Source: an uncultured Pelagibacteraceae bacterium
GTDB lineage: Bacteria > Pseudomonadota > Alphaproteobacteria > Pelagibacterales > Pelagibacteraceae
Assembly: GCA_902524345.1 (NCBI GenBank)
Contig: CABZCX010000003.1
Location: 39,504 to 103,503, forward strand
Direction: 5' to 3'
DNA length: 64,000 nucleotides
Shown here: positions 54,790 through 61,721 of the stretch, piece after piece
How positions within the stretch are numbered: position 1 is the stretch's first letter
Layout of the letters: every line of letters starts with the position of its first letter
The notes under the pieces: model-generated
What the model was told of the DNA's origin: nothing
The model's input: only the letters and a program-made list of their open reading frames with translations
Database searches by the model: none
Made by a program: the position numbers and the translations under genes

Positions 54790-55896
54790 ATGTCATCAGG
54801 CAAAAATGGTAAATTTTATACTGACCATTTGTATGGTCTTAGGGCAATTTGTGCTCTTACAGTAGCTTTGTATCACTTCAAAACTGTATCTACATCACCA
54901 ATTACAAACAATTTATTTATCGAGAATGGCTACAGATTTGTCGATATTTTTTTTTGTCTAAGTGGATCTATATTATATTTAAAGTACTCTGAAATAAAAA
55001 AAGAATTTAGAAGTATATATATTTTTTTAAAAAAAAGATTTTTTAGATTATTTCCGCTTCATCTATTACTCTTATTTTTATTTTTTTTGATTGAAATTGC
55101 TAAATTTTTAGTTGAAAAAAAATTTAATTTGTACGGTAATACTCACGCGTTTGAAATTCTAAATATTGAGAGTTTTTTTTTAAAGTTATTGATGCTGGAG
55201 GGTTTTTGGGGTGACGTTAATGCAACATTAGCTCTAAATCCAGTATCCTGGTCAATTTCTGTAGAATTTTTTTGCTATATTCTTTTTATCTCCATATTAG
55301 TTTTAAGTAGTAGGTCATTTAGCATTTTCATATTTATTTTTTTAGTTTTATCAAGCTTGTCTATTCTTGCTTATAATAGAAGTTTTTTTGAAATTGGAAA
55401 TTTAATGTGTTTAATGAGAACTATTTATAGTTTTTTTCTTCCAATAATAATTTTTATTTTATTAAAAAAAGTAGATTTTAAAACTAATAATTTTTTTATA
55501 TATATAGTTTTTTCTCTTCTAATATATTTAATTACTTTAAATACAATTTTATCTTATATTTTATGTCCAATACTAGTAAGTCTGTTCATAAATTTAACTC
55601 TAAATAAAAAAAAAAATAATTATTTGATATCTATATTAAGTTCTAATTTTCTTAAATTTTTAGGTAAGATTAGTTATGGTATTTATATGTTTCATGTCTT
55701 GGTTTGGTGGGTTACATCACAATTTTTGAGATTTATACTAAAATACCAAACTAAATTTATTCCCTCTAAAGAAATAACAATTTTAGATTTAAGTGTGCTG
55801 GAGAGTAATTTAGTTTTAATATTGGGAATTACTGTAACAATAATTATTTCAAGTTTAAGTTACCATTTTTTTGAAAACAGATTTTATAAAAAATGA
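54790..55896 (+). CDS. Acyltransferase family 3 (OafA-like membrane O-acyltransferase)
   Basis: LYGLRAI..L.V.LYH, VDIFFCLSG, RFFRLFPLH, WSISVEF, LGKISYGIYMFH, SYHFFE. Confidence 0.9.
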   Translation: MSSGKNGKFYTDHLYGLRAICALTVALYHFKTVSTSPITNNLFIENGYRFVDIFFCLSGSILYLKYSEIKKEFRSIYIFLKKRFFRLFPLHLLLLFLFFLIEIAKFLVEKKFNLYGNTHAFEILNIESFFLKLLMLEGFWGDVNATLALNPVSWSISVEFFCYILFISILVLSSRSFSIFIFIFLVLSSLSILAYNRSFFEIGNLMCLMRTIYSFFLPIIIFILLKKVDFKTNNFFIYIVFSLLIYLITLNTILSYILCPILVSLFINLTLNKKKNNYLISILSSNFLKFLGKISYGIYMFHVLVWWVTSQFLRFILKYQTKFIPSKEITILDLSVLESNLVLILGITVTIIISSLSYHFFENRFYKK

Positions 55897-55925: not shown

Positions 55926-56002
55926 TGGTGGGCCCGCCAGGACTCGAACCTGGGACCAATACATTATGAGTGTACTGCTCTAACCAACTGAGCTACAGGC
56001 CC
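55926..56002 (-). tRNA. tRNA-Ile2(CAU), lysidine type
   Basis: GGGCCTGTAGCTCAGTTGG..., anticodon loop CTCATAA, C4/C5 acceptor-stem bases typical of TilS substrates, encoded CCA. Confidence 0.93.
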
Positions 56003-56105
56003 TTGAAATTAATTAGGTATTACACCAATTTTAAAATTCATACAAGTTAACTTTACAAACAATAGATTGTATTTTTCTAAAATTTTAGACACAAACTTTG
56101 CATTC

Positions 56106-56126
56106 GTTGGTAAATCCGTTGGTAAA
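56106..56126 (+). repeat. Tandem GTTGGTAAA repeat pair (left end of cassette)
   Basis: Copies at 56106-56114 and 56118-56126. Confidence 0.9.
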
Positions 56127-56132
56127 AATTTT

Positions 56133-58220
56133 TTATAAATTTTTAAAGGTTTTTTCAGAAATTCCATTTATTCTTAATTTCTTATATTTTAAAATTTCTT
56201 TAGCAACCTTTAAGAAAGATGTATTTTTTAATTCTTCAGCTTTTTTGAAGTCATAACCATAAATCCAGATATCTTTTAATTTATTTAATTTTTTGAATAT
56301 ATTAAAATCAGTATAACCATTCGCTAAACGAGTTATAACACCACCTTCTTGATTATTCTTAGTAAAGTAATTGTAATATCTTAATTTTTCAAAAGTTTTG
56401 ATTTTTTCGAAATTTGGAAAATCATCTACCTGTAAAATTCTATGCATAAAATATAAATCATCATAACTTCCTGCATATCCTTTATGATTAATAAATTCGT
56501 CTGTAGGTTTGTCATCCTTTACTTCTTTAGGAATAACAATTTCAAAGTCCTTTAATTTTTTGGGATAAAGATTTTTTGGAAAACCAACACTTGGTGGAGA
56601 TCTTAAGTAACTATCAGCATTTAAAGTAAATCTTTCTAGATTCGGCAACTTATATAAGTTTTTGAAAAAAGACGTAGCTGTTTTCCAATCAATGATACAG
56701 GTATCCAAATGTAAATGTTTTAGTTTCTTTAGTTTTGATAGTGGTGTCCAATCTTTAATATACTTAATATTGGCTAACACTAATTGTTCAATATCTTTAA
56801 GTTTTTCGATTTCTTTCAAACTTTTTGTGTCTCTTAGATCTATTTTATCAATCTGAGCGTATTTAAGCTTTTTATCAACCGCATTTCTTAAATATGGACT
56901 TTCCTTATTTATTTTGTTTGCTATTAATTTTCCTTTTTCATTTTTGTTTAAATAGCAACCTTTAATACCTTCAACCACGATTTTGACATATGCATTTTCA
57001 TAACCATCTGAATCTTTAGTATCATAACAATGTAAATATACCGGGTAAGAACCCTTTTTCATTGGCAAAATGATTTTGGTTAAAGAAAAATCAATATCAT
57101 TTTTAAATTTATAACCATCGAACAGCTCTGATACTCCTGCTGATATTAAATCAGTTGATATTTCCAACTTCTTGTCACTTATTTCTCTCTTTTTTGATTT
57201 TTTTCCAAATGTTGGTAGATCTAATTCTTGGGGCTCAATATCTTTAATTATGCCAATAATGAAATCTTCGAATTGCTTTTTTCTAATTTCAAAACCTTCT
57301 TTAAAATTTTCTTTGAATAAAATTTTTGACTGTTTTTTTAGTATTTGAATAGCTTTTGGTAGTCGACTAGATATATATTTTCCGGAAAGTTTTACATTCT
57401 CTTTTATTTTTAAATTAGTCTCCCATCTTTTATAATGTTCACTTTCATCTTTATTTGCTAGATAATCCTCAAAAATATATTTAGTTGGATAACAATTTTC
57501 ATCTAATTGATTGTTAAATAATTCAGTATAAGAATAATTAATTGGCTCCTGATGAGGTTTTAACTCTTTATGTATAACCGATGAACTAAAACTAGATGAT
57601 TCAGGTTTATTTATAAGACCATATGAAAATTTAACACTAAATATTGGTGAAGAGTTTTGAAAAATTCCGTCTTTTTTAAAATGATCTAATTTAATAATTT
57701 CATTTAAATCCCCATCTTCATCTAACGTATCATTGTTAACACCTAATAAAGATCGTAATGGTCCACCAAAATCACCGACAGCTATTAAACCTGATTTAGT
57801 ATTTAGATCAAATAACTTAATTCTATTTTCTTTTAATTTACCAAAAAATTGATCATTAAAATCTTCTTTATCCCACCACCAGGATAAATAACTTTGCCTA
57901 TCTTTAGGATGTTGAACATATTCGGCAACTTGTGCATCAGCAAATATTTTTCTTATTCTATTTTTAGCATCTACACCAATGTAAACAGAATAGCCGCCAT
58001 CTGCTGAAGTTCCAAAAGATATAGAGTTATATTTTGATGCATCTTTTTTTTTGAACTCATCAACCAGCTCTTTTACAGGACCACCTGTTCCCCATCCAGT
58101 TTCAAAATCATTTGTTAATCGCTCACATAAATCTCCAACTGTAACCGTTGCAGCATCAACAGCATTCATTTCCAACAAATAAACATCTGTTATTGGAAAT
58201 GGATCTCTGAGTTTTTTCAT
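56133..58220 (-). CDS. 695-aa hypothetical protein: DUF4241-like motifs at the N-terminus, LRR-like C-terminus
   Basis: AVDAATVTVGD, FGTSADGGYSVYIGVD, LFDLNTKSGLIAVGD, KKGSYPVYL; LxxLxLxx repeats (LKDIEQLVLAN, LKKLKHLHLDT, LPNLERFTLN). ORF is solid, domain calls are by eye. Confidence 0.6.
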   Translation of the reverse strand: MKKLRDPFPITDVYLLEMNAVDAATVTVGDLCERLTNDFETGWGTGGPVKELVDEFKKKDASKYNSISFGTSADGGYSVYIGVDAKNRIRKIFADAQVAEYVQHPKDRQSYLSWWWDKEDFNDQFFGKLKENRIKLFDLNTKSGLIAVGDFGGPLRSLLGVNNDTLDEDGDLNEIIKLDHFKKDGIFQNSSPIFSVKFSYGLINKPESSSFSSSVIHKELKPHQEPINYSYTELFNNQLDENCYPTKYIFEDYLANKDESEHYKRWETNLKIKENVKLSGKYISSRLPKAIQILKKQSKILFKENFKEGFEIRKKQFEDFIIGIIKDIEPQELDLPTFGKKSKKREISDKKLEISTDLISAGVSELFDGYKFKNDIDFSLTKIILPMKKGSYPVYLHCYDTKDSDGYENAYVKIVVEGIKGCYLNKNEKGKLIANKINKESPYLRNAVDKKLKYAQIDKIDLRDTKSLKEIEKLKDIEQLVLANIKYIKDWTPLSKLKKLKHLHLDTCIIDWKTATSFFKNLYKLPNLERFTLNADSYLRSPPSVGFPKNLYPKKLKDFEIVIPKEVKDDKPTDEFINHKGYAGSYDDLYFMHRILQVDDFPNFEKIKTFEKLRYYNYFTKNNQEGGVITRLANGYTDFNIFKKLNKLKDIWIYGYDFKKAEELKNTSFLKVAKEILKYKKLRINGISEKTFKNL

Positions 58221-58267
58221 ATTTTATATTAAAATAAAATTTAATCTTTGTCTGAAGGATATCATTT

Positions 58268-58288
58268 GTTGGTAAATAGTTGGTAAAT
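58268..58288 (+). repeat. Tandem GTTGGTAAAT repeat pair (right end of cassette)
   Basis: Copies at 58268-58277 and 58279-58288. Confidence 0.9.
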
Positions 58289-58361
58289 TTTTATTGAAAA
58301 AAAAGGCCTCTAATGGAGGTTAGTTTTAAACACTTATTTAAGATTTTTTTTTGAGTCGTAA

Positions 58362-58401
58362 ATTATGAGTGTACTGCTCTAACCAACTGAGCTACAGGCC
58401 C
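58362..58401 (-). pseudogene. 5' half of tRNA-Ile(CAU) (nt 1-40), att-site remnant
   Basis: Exact copy of the tRNA 5' end through the anticodon loop; diverges immediately after CTCATAAT. Confidence 0.92.
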
Positions 58402-58552
58402 AAAGAAAGTAATATTGTTCTACATCTTTTTAAAATTTTTGCTATTTAAAAATAAATAAAAACGTAATTTGTCCTTTTATAACGTCATGTTCAATAAATA
58501 TTTAATGATAAATTGAAGTGCGGTATTTCAATACTAATATGCTTATATTACT

Positions 58553-59257
58553 TTAGCAAATTTTTTTAAATCTTTTTACATTCATCGTTGAGTTTAGTGG
58601 GAGACTGTTTTTTTTAATCTTTAAAACCTTTTTTTTAATTTTTTTATTATCTTTTTTAGCAAAATTATAAACGGACTGCACTGGGCCTCCTATATTAATG
58701 ATACCTTTCTTGTTTAGTAATTTGAAGAAAACTTTTACAAGATCCTCATGAAACATAAAATTTGTTTTTAAGTTTGTATATGCATAATTGTATGCAAAAG
58801 GTTTCTCAATCATACAAATTCTTAATATAAGAGAATTTTTCAACATTTGAACTGCACATTCACCTCCTAGTTTAGACCAGGCATAATTATTAATTGGGAG
58901 CAATGGGTGATATTCTTTGTAATTCCCTTTTTTAGAGGGGTAAACGTAATTTGTTGAAAAATAGATGAGCTTAATCTTATATTTTTGACAAAGGGTTACT
59001 ATATTTGCTGTACCAATAATATTTGTATTAATGCTTACATCAATTTTTTTTTCATGAAAAACCATTGGTCTTGAAATTGCTGCAGTGTGAATAATAATTT
59101 TTGGTTTTATTTTTTTAATATATTTCTCCATTTTGTTAAAATTCGTAACATCGAACACTTTAGATGATGGATAGCTAATATTTTTTTTATTTAAATAAAA
59201 TTTTTTAAACACTTTACCAAACCTTCCACTACCACCAGTAAAGATTATTTTTTTCAT
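58553..59257 (-). CDS. rmlD: RmlD-like dTDP-sugar reductase (short, 234 aa)
   Basis: TGGSGRFG, IHTAA, FSTNYVY, YAWSK (YxxxK); last gene of the rml cluster. Confidence 0.75.
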   Translation of the reverse strand: MKKIIFTGGSGRFGKVFKKFYLNKKNISYPSSKVFDVTNFNKMEKYIKKIKPKIIIHTAAISRPMVFHEKKIDVSINTNIIGTANIVTLCQKYKIKLIYFSTNYVYPSKKGNYKEYHPLLPINNYAWSKLGGECAVQMLKNSLILRICMIEKPFAYNYAYTNLKTNFMFHEDLVKVFFKLLNKKGIINIGGPVQSVYNFAKKDNKKIKKKVLKIKKNSLPLNSTMNVKRFKKIC

Positions 59258-59784
59258 CTTTTATTTTTTTTGAAATCTTTAAAAGAGATAGCAGATTTAT
59301 CTCTTTTGGAGATGATTGGTTTTTTTAAACCCCAATTAATTTTTAAATCAACATCATTCCATTTTATAGATACCTCACTTTTTGGATCTCTATAATCCGA
59401 ACAAGTGTAGTGAACAATATTTTCTCTATCTAATGCAAGAAATCCATGGGCAAAGCCTTTAGGAATAAAAAAAGATTTAGAGTTTTTCTCACTTATTATT
59501 GTTTTGTAATGTTTTCCGTAAGTTTTAGAATTTTTTCTTAAATCAACAGCTACGTCTAAAATTTTACCTTTTAAACATGTAATTATTTTATCTTGAGATC
59601 TTTTTGTTTGTAAATGTAAACCTCTCAAGACATTTTTTTTTGATTTTGAAGTTATTGAAAGAGTCATATTTTTATTTAAATTACTTTTTTTAAAAGTTTC
59701 TTTTAACCATCCTCTTTGATCAGTAAATTTTCTACCTTGTAAAATAAAAAGGTCTTTTATATTAGTTTTTTTTTTTTTCATCAC
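59254..59784 (-). CDS. rmlC: dTDP-4-dehydrorhamnose 3,5-epimerase
   Basis: DQRGWLKE, LRGLHLQ, DVAVDLR, GFAHGF, SKRD. Confidence 0.96.
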   Translation of the reverse strand: MMKKKKTNIKDLFILQGRKFTDQRGWLKETFKKSNLNKNMTLSITSKSKKNVLRGLHLQTKRSQDKIITCLKGKILDVAVDLRKNSKTYGKHYKTIISEKNSKSFFIPKGFAHGFLALDRENIVHYTCSDYRDPKSEVSIKWNDVDLKINWGLKKPIISKRDKSAISFKDFKKNKR

Positions 59785-60651
59785 TCAAATTAACTTTTTT
59801 AAGTAATTCGCGTAGTTACAATTTCCATAAAATTGAATTGCATTTAAAATCTCTTTTTTTCCAATCCATTTATTGTTAAAAGCAATTTCTTCTGGACAAC
59901 CAATTTTAAAACCTTGTCTATTTTCTATTGCTGATACGAAAGCGCTTGTTTTATAAAAATCTTCTATAGAACCACTATCTAACCATGCGCTTCCACGACC
60001 AAGAATTTCTGATGTCAATTTTTTTTTTCTTAAATAAATTTTTAATAAATCTACGATCTCCAACTCTTTTCTTGATGAAGGTTTTAGTTGTTTTGAATAT
60101 TTAACGACTTTTTTATCAAAAAAATAAAGTCCTGTTACTGCTAAATTAGAAATATATTTTTTAGGTTTTTCAATAATATTCAAAATTTTATTATTTTTAT
60201 TTACTTTGGCGACACCAAATAATTCTGGATTTAAAACTCTATGTAAAATAATTCTAGCTCCAGATTTTAATTTTTTATATTTATTTAAATTTTCAGATAA
60301 ACCTTGACCATAAAAAAAATTATCTCCTAAAATCATTGCAACACTTTTATTATCAATAAATTTTTCTCCTAAAATAAATGCATCTGGTAAGCCTCTTGGT
60401 TTGCTTTGCTCTTGATAACTGACTTTAATTCCAAGATTTTTTCCATTTTGTATTAATTTTCTATATTGATTAATTTGACCCTTGTTAACAATAATCAGGA
60501 TATCTCTAATCTTTGATAACATTAAAATTGAAAGAGGATAAAAAATAAGCGGTTTATCGTAAATGGGTAACAGCTGTTTATTTACAGCTTTTGTAAGCGG
60601 ACTCATTCTTGTTCCAGTTCCGCCCGCAAGTATAATTCCTTTATTAATCAT
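59785..60651 (-). CDS. rmlA: Glucose-1-phosphate thymidylyltransferase
   Basis: GIILAGGTGTRM, KQLLPIYDKP, LGDN, EKP, WLDSG. Confidence 0.97.
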   Translation of the reverse strand: MINKGIILAGGTGTRMSPLTKAVNKQLLPIYDKPLIFYPLSILMLSKIRDILIIVNKGQINQYRKLIQNGKNLGIKVSYQEQSKPRGLPDAFILGEKFIDNKSVAMILGDNFFYGQGLSENLNKYKKLKSGARIILHRVLNPELFGVAKVNKNNKILNIIEKPKKYISNLAVTGLYFFDKKVVKYSKQLKPSSRKELEIVDLLKIYLRKKKLTSEILGRGSAWLDSGSIEDFYKTSAFVSAIENRQGFKIGCPEEIAFNNKWIGKKEILNAIQFYGNCNYANYLKKLI

Positions 60652-61663
60652 TTTTACCCAATCTCCGAAGAATATCTTTTTTTGTTAAGAATTTATAGTA
60701 TGATTTATTTTTATTATACCAGTTGAAAGTATTCTTTAACCCAATTGTAAAATTTGTTTTTGGACGGAACTTTAACTCCCGTTTTATCTTTTTGCTATCT
60801 AAAGCATAGCGAAAATCATGACCCGGTCTATCTTTAACAAAATTTATTTTTACTTTATTGCCAATCTTTATCAATTTTTTTGAAATATTTAAAAGACTTT
60901 TACATACCTCAAGATTTGAAAGATTTTTATTTGAACCTATATTATAAAATTCTCCAATCTTCCCATTTTTGAAAATTTTTAATAAAGCTTCGCAATGATC
61001 TTTGACATAAATCCACTCTCTCGAATTAATACCTTTACCGTAGATTGGTAAATTTCTATTATTCAAAATATTATAAATCAACTTCGGTATTAATTTTTCA
61101 GGGTGTTGTTTTGGTCCATAATTATTTGAACAATTGGTAACAATTGCGGGAATCTTGTATGTTCTAATGTAAGAAAAAACTAAGTGGTCTGAAGCAGCTT
61201 TACTAGCGGCATATGGAGAACTTGGTCTATATGAGTTTTTTTCTGATGCTCTTCCTTTTAAAATATCACCAAAAACTTCATCAGTCGATATGTGAATTAA
61301 TCTTGATTTGTATTTTTTTGAAAATGATTTGAAATATTCTAAAAGATTATAGACACTTATTATATTGCTATTAATAAAATTTTTTGGATTATCTATGGAT
61401 CTATCCACATGAGTTTCGGCAGCTAAATTAAAAATACATACTGGTTTGTATCTAAAAAGAATATTTCTCATTTTAGTATTCCCAATATCACATCTTATAA
61501 ACTTATAGTTTTTTGAAGCTTTAAAATTTTTTACATTATAGAAATTTGAAGAGTAAGTTACTTTGTCTATATTCAATACTTTATATTTTTTTTCCAATAA
61601 TAACTCTATCAGATTGCTGCCAATAAAGCCTAATCCACCAGTAACAATTATATTTTTTGACAT
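60644..61663 (-). CDS. rmlB: dTDP-glucose 4,6-dehydratase
   Basis: TGGLGFIG, AAETHVDRS, ISTDEV, YAASK, DRPGHD. Confidence 0.97.
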   Translation of the reverse strand: MSKNIIVTGGLGFIGSNLIELLLEKKYKVLNIDKVTYSSNFYNVKNFKASKNYKFIRCDIGNTKMRNILFRYKPVCIFNLAAETHVDRSIDNPKNFINSNIISVYNLLEYFKSFSKKYKSRLIHISTDEVFGDILKGRASEKNSYRPSSPYAASKAASDHLVFSYIRTYKIPAIVTNCSNNYGPKQHPEKLIPKLIYNILNNRNLPIYGKGINSREWIYVKDHCEALLKIFKNGKIGEFYNIGSNKNLSNLEVCKSLLNISKKLIKIGNKVKINFVKDRPGHDFRYALDSKKIKRELKFRPKTNFTIGLKNTFNWYNKNKSYYKFLTKKDILRRLGKND

Positions 61664-61721
61664 TAATATTTTTATTTCATTGCAAAGAATTTATAAGATT
61701 AATGTTTAATTTACAAATTAA

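What the first reader, a model, noticed from the sequence alone, without database searches (positions are those of the whole stretch)
55926..58401. Integrase-less cassette that integrates at the anticodon loop and replaces the 5' half of tRNA-Ile(CAU)
Seen: in transcription order the locus reads tRNA nt 1-40 (58401-58362), 2.36 kb cargo, then a complete tRNA (56002-55926). Identity stops one base past the anticodon loop. Known: tyrosine integrases often cross over in the 7-nt anticodon loop, but most elements duplicate the 3' part and leave the native promoter on the intact gene. Inference: this element does the reverse, so the intact, probably essential lysidine tRNA now depends on element-supplied 5' sequence and promoter. 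No integrase lies within or near it, so it would be a minimal single-gene cassette moved in trans (by a pelagiphage, satellite or distant host integrase), potentially building integron-like arrays at the tRNA. This is the best candidate for an undescribed system in the window.
Basis: partly seen in the sequence, partly recalled or inferred. Interest (0 to 1): 0.85.

Follow-up and report, generated by a model that had tools for sequence, protein, structure and literature searches.

The report
Integrase-less islet at SAR11 tRNA(CAU)
A 2.4-kb one-gene insert in a SAR11 (Pelagibacter) genome sits between a leftover 5' half and a rebuilt full copy of a tRNA gene, carries the attachment-site arms of a family of small marine phage satellites but no integrase of its own, and is one of many such integrase-less islets (mostly restriction-modification cargo) that pile up at this tRNA.

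Summary
An exact 40-nt copy of tRNA(CAU) nt 1-40 (58362-58401, -) lies 2,399 nt upstream of the intact gene (55926-56002, -). Between them is one 695-aa ORF. The contig has no integrase.

The insert is not a one-off. About 60 related Pelagibacteraceae loci show the same order: 5' half, 0.2-20 kb of cargo, full tRNA. Most relatives carry only one copy of the 40-mer.

Cargo is always bracketed by paired TTACCAAC repeats at fixed distances from the core. The repeats are about 95% conserved, the spacers about 53%, and sequence beyond them about 36%.

The same module (repeats, exact 40-nt core, repeats) is the attP of roughly 9.1-kb elements from marine viromes and metagenomes. These encode a 470-aa tyrosine integrase, a DNA polymerase and TerS, and resemble VEIME-type satellites. 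One is integrated in tandem with an integrase-less islet in a single-cell genome.

Tandem arrays, cargo-less modules and recent transfer all occur (97.7% identity in the cargo against 79.5% in the flank).

The "reverse", 5'-half architecture is already published for pelagiphages, so that part is not new. Movement in trans is plausible but unproven: I found no free circular form of this arm family.

The parts
58362..58401 (-). attL core. This is the displaced native 5' half of tRNA(CAU), nt 1-40, still attached to the host-side upstream sequence.
   Evidence: It is 40/40 identical to the intact gene. The same partial copy sits upstream of the cargo in every related locus.
58263..58361 (-). P' arm of the att module. 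It contains the paired TTACCAAC repeats at 58279-58286 and 58268-58275, which are probable integrase arm-type sites.
   Evidence: The repeats lie at +115 and +126 from the core start in 38 of 42 attL sites. Pairwise identity is 0.954 in the repeats, 0.528 in the spacer and 0.365 beyond them. The same layout occurs in the satellite attP.
56133..58220 (-). Cargo gene P0001, 695 aa. The N-terminal ~440 aa have no match to a known fold and the C-terminal part is a leucine-rich-repeat domain. It is co-directional with the tRNA.
   Evidence: Translation. Weak LRR hits in Pfam. AlphaFold2 mean pLDDT is 82.9, and Foldseek matches only LRR proteins. There are 117 homologue clusters, all unnamed marine proteins. 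No PADLOC or NCBIfam hit.
56003..56128 (-). P arm of the att module. It contains the paired TTACCAAC repeats at 56118-56125 and 56106-56113, and it forms the element-supplied leader of the intact tRNA.
   Evidence: Repeats. In attR sites (n=10) identity is 0.941 in the repeats and 0.348 before them. This arm is 96% identical to the P arm of the G387 islet, which carries unrelated cargo.
56017..56045 (-). Promoter-like TTGTAT-N17-TAATAC inside the P arm, ending 14 nt before the mature tRNA 5' end.
   Evidence: Read directly from the sequence. Equivalent TTGATT-N16-TAAAAC occurs in other P arms. Native leaders of other genera have TTGAAA-N17-TAAAAC. The consensus scanner did not call it, so this is an inference only.
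55926..56002 (-). Intact tRNA with anticodon CAU (attR core plus the native 3' half). It is probably tRNA-Ile2, although ARAGORN labels it Met.
   Evidence: ARAGORN. Rfam tRNA model, 72.7 bits.

Best explanation
The 2.4-kb segment is a non-autonomous integrative islet. It consists of the roughly 265-bp attachment module of a family of SAR11 phage satellites or temperate pelagiphages, plus one cargo gene.

The module reads: paired TTACCAAC repeats, about 100 nt, tRNA(CAU) nt 1-40, about 75 nt, paired TTACCAAC repeats. It entered the tRNA(CAU) gene that natively follows rpoD and tRNA-Val. Entry was by tyrosine-integrase recombination inside the 40-nt core, most likely at the anticodon loop.

Recombination left the host's own 5' half behind as attL. 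It rebuilt the tRNA from the element's 5' half and leader as attR. The integrase is not in the islet. It is encoded by roughly 9.1-kb integrase/DNA polymerase/TerS satellites that carry the same attP. Any later excision, transfer or stacking therefore needs that enzyme in trans.

Shown here: the repeat structure, the islet family, single-copy and empty sites in relatives, arrays, conserved arms, satellites with the same attP, and recent horizontal spread.

Inferred: that the TTACCAAC repeats bind the integrase, that the P arm supplies the tRNA promoter, that the native promoter or the P' arm drives the first cargo gene, and that the islet can still move. The one-gene state is probably a deletion derivative of larger defence-type islets.
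For: 1. Same architecture elsewhere.
- 13 of about 300 family genomes that carry the 40-mer have two same-strand copies, and all of these have the partial copy upstream.
- A scan of species-representative genomes gives 41 partial-copy sites, and metagenome contigs give 19 more.

2. Most genomes have a single copy of the 40-mer. Native sites read rpoD stop, about 40 nt, tRNA, or rpoD, tRNA-Val, about 60 nt, tRNA.

3. Arm conservation. For attL (n=42) identity is 0.994 in the core, 0.528 in the spacer, 0.954 in the paired repeats and 0.365 beyond them. For attR (n=10) it is 0.348 before the repeats, 0.941 in them and 0.653 in the spacer.

4. True attP with an integrase.
- IMG/VR contig L052 has paired TTACCAAC, about 100 nt, the exact 40-nt core, and a P' arm with 2-3 repeats. 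A 470-aa integrase (phrog_216) starts about 90 nt from the P arm, followed by DNA polymerase and TerS.
- The 64%-identical P0126 element is a roughly 9.1-kb unit assembled as dimers, with the same core and (A/C)TACCAAC repeats.
- The integrase family has 116 clusters in marine data.

5. A satellite (68-aa gene, TerS, DNA polymerase) is integrated directly behind an attP-like junction, downstream of an integrase-less unit, in single-cell genome AG-899-N21. Further arrays occur in AG-895-B08 and G158.

6. Same arms, different cargo. G387 shares 94-96% identical arms with the window but carries 12 kb of unrelated genes. Cargo across islets is dominated by restriction-modification and other defence-like genes.

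7. Recent transfer. Against AG-909-I04, the window is 97.7% identical over 2,306 nt of P0001, P arm and tRNA, but only 79.5% in the adjacent mlaC/mlaA flank.

8. No integrase and no satellite-gene remnants in about 70 islet loci, apart from the G197 islet, which has a different att type.

9. Published precedent for 5'-end tRNA cores in pelagiphages (10.1101/410191; PMC8477408) and for Pelagibacter satellites with DNA polymerase and TerS (10.1101/2022.07.26.501625).
Against: - No free attP or circular form with this islet's own P' arm type (TTACGACTC...) turned up. The viral-contig scan was negative. An attP-junction pattern found nothing in metagenome contigs. All 19 metagenome contigs with this arm are host-flanked attL sites.
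- The window and AG-909-I04 share the cargo gene and P arm at 97.7% but the P' arm at only 85%. The homology breakpoint lies at the gene start, not at an att site. That points to homologous or illegitimate recombination rather than cassette-wise site-specific exchange.
- Cargo-less modules of 229-257 nt show that deletion between the two repeat pairs occurs, so the repeats may also act as plain homology.
- Integrase binding to TTACCAAC is untested.
- The promoter and terminator scans called nothing here.
- No integrase of the satellite type was detected in this 90%-complete assembly.
Confidence: 0.62

Rival explanations
1. Dead relic. A satellite or temperate pelagiphage once integrated here and its own genes were lost. 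The remaining att arms are kept only because the P arm now carries the promoter of an essential tRNA. Cargo differences between genomes arise by homologous recombination that uses the tRNA, the arms and flanking core genes as anchors, with no further integrase activity.
For: - The homology breakpoint with AG-909-I04 is at the gene start, not at an att site, and the P' arm is only 85% identical against 97.7% for the cargo and P arm.
- No free attP form of this arm family was found.
- Cargo-less modules show internal deletion.
- Published models for SAR11 islands assume that phages deposit cargo and then decay (10.64898/2026.04.03.716430).
Against: - None of about 70 islets keeps any fragment of integrase, polymerase or TerS, so decay intermediates are missing.
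- The distal repeat pairs are 94-95% conserved although the spacers between them and the core have diverged to 53-65%. The P' arm pair has no obvious role in tRNA expression.
- Tandem arrays with complete attP-like junctions need repeated site-specific insertion.
Confidence: 0.28
2. A host-run, integron-like system. A chromosomal recombinase, for example the single Xer-like tyrosine recombinase on another contig, captures cassettes at the tRNA.
For: - The assembly has one divergent 325-aa tyrosine recombinase, scoring 70 bits against XerD where the cut-off is 330.
- Arrays exist, and the first cargo gene is co-directional with the tRNA in 35 of 46 loci.
Against: - No recombinase is linked to the site in any genome examined.
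- The repeat unit is a 265-bp lambda-type att module, not an attC hairpin.
- An integrase with exactly this attP exists on mobile satellites.
- The Xer-like protein has no arm-binding N-terminal extension; it is 325 aa against 470 aa.
Confidence: 0.05
3. Assembly artefact or chance local duplication of half a tRNA gene.
For: The assembly is fragmented (16 contigs).
Against: The same structure, with homologous arms, occurs in complete genomes, single-cell genomes and metagenome contigs from many samples.
Confidence: 0.01

Closest known systems
Integration modules of temperate pelagiphages (HTVC019P-type; HTVC010P-type such as HTVC028P; prophage PNP1)
   Same: - A tyrosine integrase with attB inside a SAR11 tRNA gene.
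[quoted passage not shown]
- The element supplies the 5' part, so the tRNA is rebuilt at attR (10.1101/410191; PMC8477408).
- PNP1 is reported to use a tRNA-Met site.
   Different: Those are complete 30-40-kb phages that carry their own integrase. The window element has no integrase and no phage genes. I did not compare integrase sequences with those phages, and INPHARED held no phage with this attP.
VEIMEs, the marine virion-encapsidated integrative mobile elements, especially the Pelagibacter-associated module with TerS and DNA polymerase (Eppley et al. 2022, 10.1101/2022.07.26.501625)
   Same: - The roughly 9.1-kb integrase/DNA polymerase/TerS elements found here (L052, L213-L218) match that description.
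- They assemble as concatemer-like dimers.
- They carry the same 40-nt core and arm repeats as the window islet.
- That paper also notes that about 20% of VEIMEs lack integrases.
   Different: The window islet has none of the satellite's genes and is only 2.4 kb. It was not found in viral-fraction contigs. I did not test whether the 9.1-kb elements belong to the published VEIME set.
CIMEs (cis-mobilizable elements) and other 'hitcher' islands flanked by the att sites of an autonomous element (Streptococcus thermophilus ICESt3/CIME, recalled from memory; concept reviewed in PMC11389934)
   Same: Flanked by attL and attR of an integrase-bearing element, with no recombination or transfer genes. 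Found in tandem accretion with the autonomous element (AG-899-N21).
   Different: The helper here is a phage satellite or phage, not a conjugative element. The site is the 5' half of a tRNA. No mobilisation experiment exists.
Tycheposon-built genomic islands of Prochlorococcus (10.1101/2020.12.28.424599)
   Same: A streamlined marine bacterium with tRNA-anchored islands. Successive integrations are separated by partial tRNAs, and remnants and cargo include defence genes.
   Different: Tycheposons carry their own recombinases and replication modules. Conserved integrase-less att-only units are not their defining feature.
Integron gene cassettes
   Same: Promoter-less or single-gene units stacked in one orientation at a fixed site. 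The first unit sits behind a resident promoter and the recombinase acts in trans on each unit.
   Different: There is no IntI next to the site and no attC hairpin. The unit is a lambda-type attP with arm repeats, and the site lies inside a tRNA gene.

Membership tests
Lambda-type (heterobivalent tyrosine integrase) attP/attB integration in a tRNA gene | Direct repeats at both ends that match a segment of the target tRNA | tested here: met
   40/40 nt repeat.
Lambda-type (heterobivalent tyrosine integrase) attP/attB integration in a tRNA gene | Repeated arm-type sites on both sides of the core at fixed distances | tested here: met
   Paired TTACCAAC repeats lie about 75 nt after the core and about 100 nt before it. 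They are 94-95% conserved across 42 attL and 10 attR sites. Protein binding itself cannot be tested with these tools.
Lambda-type (heterobivalent tyrosine integrase) attP/attB integration in a tRNA gene | Integrase gene inside the element | tested here: not met
   Nothing in the window element and no PF00589 hit on the contig. None in about 70 related islets apart from G197.
Lambda-type (heterobivalent tyrosine integrase) attP/attB integration in a tRNA gene | Unoccupied attB in relatives, and a free attP on an integrase-bearing element | tested here: met
   Most relatives carry a single copy of the 40-mer, and native empty sites were read directly. attP sits next to a 470-aa integrase on L052 and on L213-L218.
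Phage satellite (VEIME / PICI-like) | Own integrase, replication gene and packaging gene (TerS) in a 5-15-kb unit | tested here: not met
   The window element holds only a 695-aa LRR protein in 2.4 kb. tblastn with the satellite proteins gives no hit.
Phage satellite (VEIME / PICI-like) | Packaged as concatemers in virions | tested here: inconclusive
   No viral contig carries this islet. A 2,431-bp Tara scaffold equals one unit with the core at both ends, but a short-k assembly break at the repeat explains that equally well.
CIME-like / hitcher element | Flanked by att sites of an autonomous element and lacking mobility genes | tested here: met
CIME-like / hitcher element | Occurs in tandem with the autonomous element | tested here: met
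   AG-899-N21 has an integrase-less unit followed by an integrated satellite. This is seen in a relative, not in the window genome.
CIME-like / hitcher element | Excised or transferred when the helper's integrase is present | not testable with these tools
Integron cassette array | IntI integrase and attI next to the array, with attC hairpins on the cassettes | tested here: not met
   There is no recombinase near the site. The repeat unit is the att module, not a hairpin, and the RNA/DNA fold of the attL region is not significant (z = -1.4).
Decayed prophage | Remnants of phage structural, replication or integrase genes | tested here: not met
   Pfam, PHROG-based and tblastn comparisons find none in the window islet or its relatives.
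tRNA-Ile2 (lysidine, CAU) | TilS determinants (C4-G69, C5-G68, G27-U43; recalled from E. coli work) and absence of initiator features | tested here: inconclusive
   The sequence shows C4-G69, C5-G68 and G27-U43 and lacks the three G-C pairs of an initiator anticodon stem. No isotype-specific model was available, and ARAGORN labels it Met.

The most novel reading that the evidence does not exclude
SAR11 genomes hold a population of att-only cassettes. These are mostly restriction-modification and other defence genes, here a single LRR protein. They have no mobility genes of their own and parasitise the integrase of phage satellites, making them hitchers on a satellite of a phage. They stack into integron-like arrays at tRNA(CAU). 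The displaced native tRNA promoter drives the first cassette, and each cassette brings a replacement promoter and 5' half for the essential tRNA.
Probability: 0.33. Interest if true: 0.75.

Novelty: new variant of a known kind. Interest (0 to 1): 0.55.

Why it matters
SAR11 is the most abundant bacterial group in the ocean. It lacks conjugative elements, and how it acquires and shuffles defence genes is an open question.

These data show one concrete, sequence-defined route. A single tRNA(CAU) site next to rpoD collects small islets bounded by the attachment arms of abundant roughly 9-kb phage satellites. If the islets are still substrates of the satellite integrase, they form a third tier of parasitism and act as a cassette system for restriction-modification genes in streamlined genomes.

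The defined attP, consisting of a 40-nt core plus TTACCAAC repeats, together with its 470-aa integrase is directly testable. It could also serve as a genetic tool for SAR11, which has few.

If the islets are only relics, the finding still documents how satellite integration rewires the promoter and 5' half of a probably essential tRNA.

Tried and rejected
- INPHARED phage search with a reconstructed attP gave only generic tRNA-Met matches in unrelated phages and no pelagiphage with this attP.
- A scan of viral contigs for the paired-repeat pattern alone returned mostly unrelated contigs and was not informative.
- The search for related loci with the single integrase sequence found only the query itself.
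- The attP-junction pattern for this arm family gave 0 hits in metagenome contigs.
- The consensus promoter and terminator scan called nothing at the tRNA leader or after the half-tRNA.
- An RNA fold of the half-tRNA plus P' arm is no better than shuffled sequence (z = -1.4). I therefore dropped the idea of a terminator in the P' arm.
- Function of P0001: there is no PADLOC or NCBIfam hit, and Foldseek matches only the LRR part. The DUF4241 hit noted earlier has E = 0.33 and is not significant.
- A 112-aa ORF that often sits where the integrase would be has no similarity to the integrase and no family hit.
- A search for an older degenerate half-tRNA upstream of the rml operon found none.
As a result I could not do three things: fetch same-genus empty sites, test island genomes for satellite integrases elsewhere, or look for excision joints in reads.
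Full report
**Observation**

The window holds one intact tRNA with anticodon CAT at 55926-56002 on the minus strand (ARAGORN; Rfam tRNA model, 72.7 bits). An exact copy of its first 40 nt lies at 58362-58401 on the same strand. Identity ends one base after the anticodon loop. The whole assembly (16 contigs, 1.08 Mb, 90% complete) contains only these two copies, and no degenerate third copy lies nearby.

Between the copies is one ORF of 695 aa (56133-58220, minus). Paired TTACCAAC repeats lie at 58268-58286 and 56106-56125, so one pair flanks each end of the ORF. The only tyrosine recombinase found in the assembly is a 325-aa Xer-like protein on another contig.

**Context**

Upstream in the direction of tRNA transcription lie rpoD, tRNA-Val(GAC) and an rmlBACD operon. 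Downstream lie a convergent acyltransferase gene, then mlaC and mlaA.

In relatives the native arrangement takes one of two forms. One is rpoD stop, about 40 nt, tRNA(CAU). The other is rpoD, tRNA-Val, about 60 nt, tRNA(CAU), followed by mlaC and mlaA on the opposite strand.

**The structure recurs**

In 401 genomes of the family, 304 carry the 40-mer. Most carry it once, and 13 carry two copies on the same strand, 1.8 to 19.6 kb apart. I fetched all 13. In every case the upstream copy is the partial one (nt 1-39 or 1-40) and the downstream copy is the full gene.

A scan of species-representative genomes for the partial-copy junction gave 41 sites, all in Pelagibacteraceae. Metagenome contigs gave 19 more for the window's own arm type.

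Cargo differs widely between loci. It includes one or two C5 cytosine methylases with HNH, SinI, NgoFVII, AspBHI or Alw26I-type endonucleases. It also includes type III and N6 methylase systems, Z1/DUF4420/HATPase_c_3 sets, CHAT and caspase-like proteases, PrsW and trypsin-like proteases, and a RecB-nuclease/helicase resembling MkoA. The site is thus a hot spot for small, mostly defence-type islets.

**The ends are an attachment module**

In six of the first 13 loci, the window among them, the sequence after the partial copy is homologous (TTTACGACTCAAAAAAATATCTTAAAT...). Paired TTACCAAC repeats follow at +115 and +126. Upstream of the full tRNA another pair lies about 100-125 nt away.

Across 42 attL sites, mean pairwise identity is 0.994 in the core and 0.528 in the spacer. 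It is 0.954 in the paired repeats and 0.365 in the 40 columns beyond them. Across 10 attR sites it is 0.348 before the repeats, 0.941 in them and 0.653 in the spacer. Conservation therefore starts and stops exactly at the repeat pairs.

This is the layout of a lambda-type attP split by integration: P arm, core, P' arm, with arm-type sites on both arms. Other genera show the same layout with different paired repeats, such as GGAAACTG, GTGTACATG, TTGGGACTG and GTCTAAAC. That variation is what integrases with different arm specificities would produce.

**The matching integrase is on small satellites**

One IMG/VR contig (L052, 8.9 kb) carries the unsplit module. It reads paired TTTACCAAC, about 100 nt, the exact 40-nt half-tRNA, then a P' arm with two to three repeats. 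A 470-aa tyrosine integrase (phrog_216) starts about 90 nt from the P arm, and a family-A DNA polymerase and a small terminase follow.

The integrase family has 116 clusters in marine data. The 64%-identical P0126 occurs on contigs of 9.2 kb and 18.3-18.4 kb, and the longer ones repeat one gene order twice. The order is integrase, eight small ORFs, DNA polymerase, a 137-aa ORF, TerS, then small ORFs. The unit is about 9,104 bp. Its attP has the same exact core, with (A/C)TACCAAC repeats twice on one arm and three times on the other.

These elements have no capsid or tail genes. They match the published Pelagibacter-associated VEIME satellites with TerS and DNA polymerase, which are packaged as concatemers (10.1101/2022.07.26.501625). 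I did not test formal membership in that published set.

**Link between satellites and integrase-less islets**

In single-cell genome AG-899-N21, one partial copy is followed by an integrase-less unit. Next comes an attP-like junction (P arm, core, P' arm). After that come the satellite's 68-aa gene, TerS and DNA polymerase.

AG-895-B08 has a two-unit array: partial copy, 1.2 kb, partial copy, 2.8 kb with a methylase, then the full tRNA. G158 has two partial copies before its contig ends. Modules with no cargo at all, 229-257 nt between cores, also exist.

None of about 70 islet loci contains an integrase or any satellite gene remnant. The one exception is G197, which has a different att type and a 317-aa integrase of its own.

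**Recent spread**

Against AG-909-I04 (L181), the window is 97.7% identical over 2,306 nt covering P0001, the P arm and the tRNA. It is only 79.5% identical in the adjacent mlaC/mlaA flank, and 85% in the P' arm.

The AG-909-I04 islet is 6.3 kb and has methylase genes ahead of the P0001 homologue. The homology with the window begins 7 nt before the ATG. The G387 islet shares 94-96% identical arms with the window but carries 12 kb of unrelated cargo.

So the cargo moves horizontally, but at least some of the mosaicism has breakpoints away from the att sites.

**The cargo gene**

P0001 has 117 homologue clusters, all unnamed and all from marine samples. Where context is available the homologue is usually the last gene before the P arm and tRNA. 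In Pelagibacter sp. RS40 (G179) and in a single-cell genome (L243) it is linked to a RecB/helicase protein and a roughly 195-aa protein.

AlphaFold2 gives mean pLDDT 82.9. Only the C-terminal ~240 residues, a leucine-rich-repeat solenoid, match solved structures. No defence-system model matches.

I read it as the remaining member of a larger defence-type gene set. Its function is unknown, with an LRR domain that could act as a sensor or binding part. A 94% homologue also occurs outside any att context.

**Mechanism**

Recombination between a circular attP (P arm, core, P' arm, plus the rest of the circle) and the tRNA gives two junctions. One is host upstream, core, P' arm. The other is P arm, core, tRNA 3' half. 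That is exactly the order seen here.

The rebuilt tRNA therefore takes its first 40 nt and its leader from the element. Both copies are identical, so the tRNA itself is unchanged. The P arm contains TTGTAT-N17-TAATAC, ending 14 nt before the tRNA. Other P arms and native leaders have TTGATT/TTGAAA-N16/17-TAAAAC. The consensus scanner does not call it, so an element-supplied promoter remains an inference.

The first cargo ORF is co-directional with the tRNA in 35 of 46 loci and starts 30-100 nt after the repeats. This fits expression from upstream but does not prove it.

**What is known and what is new**

Cores at the 5' end of SAR11 tRNA genes, with the element supplying the 5' part, are published and PCR-verified for HTVC019P-type and HTVC010P-type pelagiphages (10.1101/410191; PMC8477408). 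Prophage PNP1 is reported at a tRNA-Met. VEIME satellites in Pelagibacter, a fifth of them without integrases, are published (10.1101/2022.07.26.501625). Arrays of elements separated by partial tRNAs are known from Prochlorococcus (10.1101/2020.12.28.424599). Att-flanked elements without integrases (CIMEs, 'hitchers') are known from other bacteria (PMC11389934). A general model of phages depositing cargo at tRNAs has been proposed for Pelagibacter (10.64898/2026.04.03.716430).

I did not find the specific picture described anywhere. That picture is a conserved 265-bp att module of a satellite integrase that bounds dozens of integrase-less, mostly restriction-modification islets at tRNA(CAU). 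Selection-like conservation is confined to the core and arm repeats, and the units stack in tandem, sometimes with the satellite itself.

**Limits**

I found no circular or attP form of the window's own arm family. Whether the islet can still move is open.

I put 0.62 on origin by satellite-type or phage-type site-specific integration with dependence on an integrase in trans, and 0.28 on a fixed relic reshuffled only by homologous recombination. The remaining weight goes to the other explanations.

The tRNA is probably Ile2 (C4-G69, C5-G68, G27-U43), but this was not tested.

The scan's earlier notes on the same stretch agree on the arm repeats and the promoter copy.

Noticed in passing
window 58553-59257 (-): The rmlD ORF is short (234 aa). 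Only its first ~150 residues match RmlD_sub_bind (profile positions 2-151 of 287), so the C-terminal part is replaced or frameshifted just upstream of the half-tRNA.
   Followed up: no
window 58402-61721 and 54790-55896: The rmlBACD operon sits between tRNA-Val and the half-tRNA, where other genomes have only about 60 nt. An Acyl_transf_3 gene sits between the tRNA and mlaC and is absent in AG-909-I04 (L181). Both sides of the tRNA are therefore additional variable slots, and neither has a recognisable att remnant.
   Followed up: partly
L213/L214 (metagenome contigs, 18.3-18.4 kb); L215, L218 (9.2 kb): A roughly 9,104-bp integrase/DNA polymerase/TerS element is assembled as head-to-tail dimers, as expected for a circular or concatemeric satellite. 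Its integrase cluster was indexed in 266 blocks of the collection.
   Followed up: partly
L047 and L048 (G182 = AG-426-E17, contig positions 141146 and 398285): The full tRNA keeps its native tRNA-Val upstream flank. A lone partial copy with a satellite-type P' arm start but no TTACCAAC repeats lies 257 kb away on the opposite strand. This is an orphan att relic or the trace of a rearrangement.
   Followed up: no
L208 (AG-461-M06) and L238 (Tara scaffold): These are cargo-less att modules. The partial copy and the next core are only 257 and 229 nt apart, which is what recombination between the two TTACCAAC pairs would leave behind.
   Followed up: partly
L003, L005, L006, L008, L021, L022 (other genera of the family): These have the same layout upstream of tRNA(CAU) but with different paired repeats (GGAAACTG, GTGTACATG, TTGGGACTG, GTCTAAAC, GTAGAAACTG), and their partial copies end in ...CATAAA. 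They are probably sister integrase families with other arm specificities.
   Followed up: no
L033:5335-5673 (-) and homologues in G275, G373, G387, L175, L177, L184, L204, L209, L233: A conserved acidic 112-aa ORF (83-95% identical) sits on the opposite strand next to the P arm in many methylase-bearing islets, in the position the integrase occupies in satellites. It has no Pfam or PADLOC hit and no similarity to the integrase.
   Followed up: partly
L181:4643-6728 (AG-909-I04): The 98%-identical homologue of the window's cargo gene is split by a frameshift near residue 295. This is either a pseudogene or a single-cell assembly error.
   Followed up: no
L219/L220 (metagenome contigs): A 94%-identical homologue of P0001 lies in a tight gene cluster with no att arms or tRNA nearby, so the gene also circulates outside this site, possibly on a phage.
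   Followed up: no
L036:3771-4724 (-) (G197): A 2.8-kb islet at the same tRNA carries its own 317-aa tyrosine integrase directly after the partial copy. It has no TTACCAAC repeats, and its partial copy continues as a degenerate tRNA 3' half. This is a second, autonomous element type using the same 5'-half strategy.
   Followed up: partly
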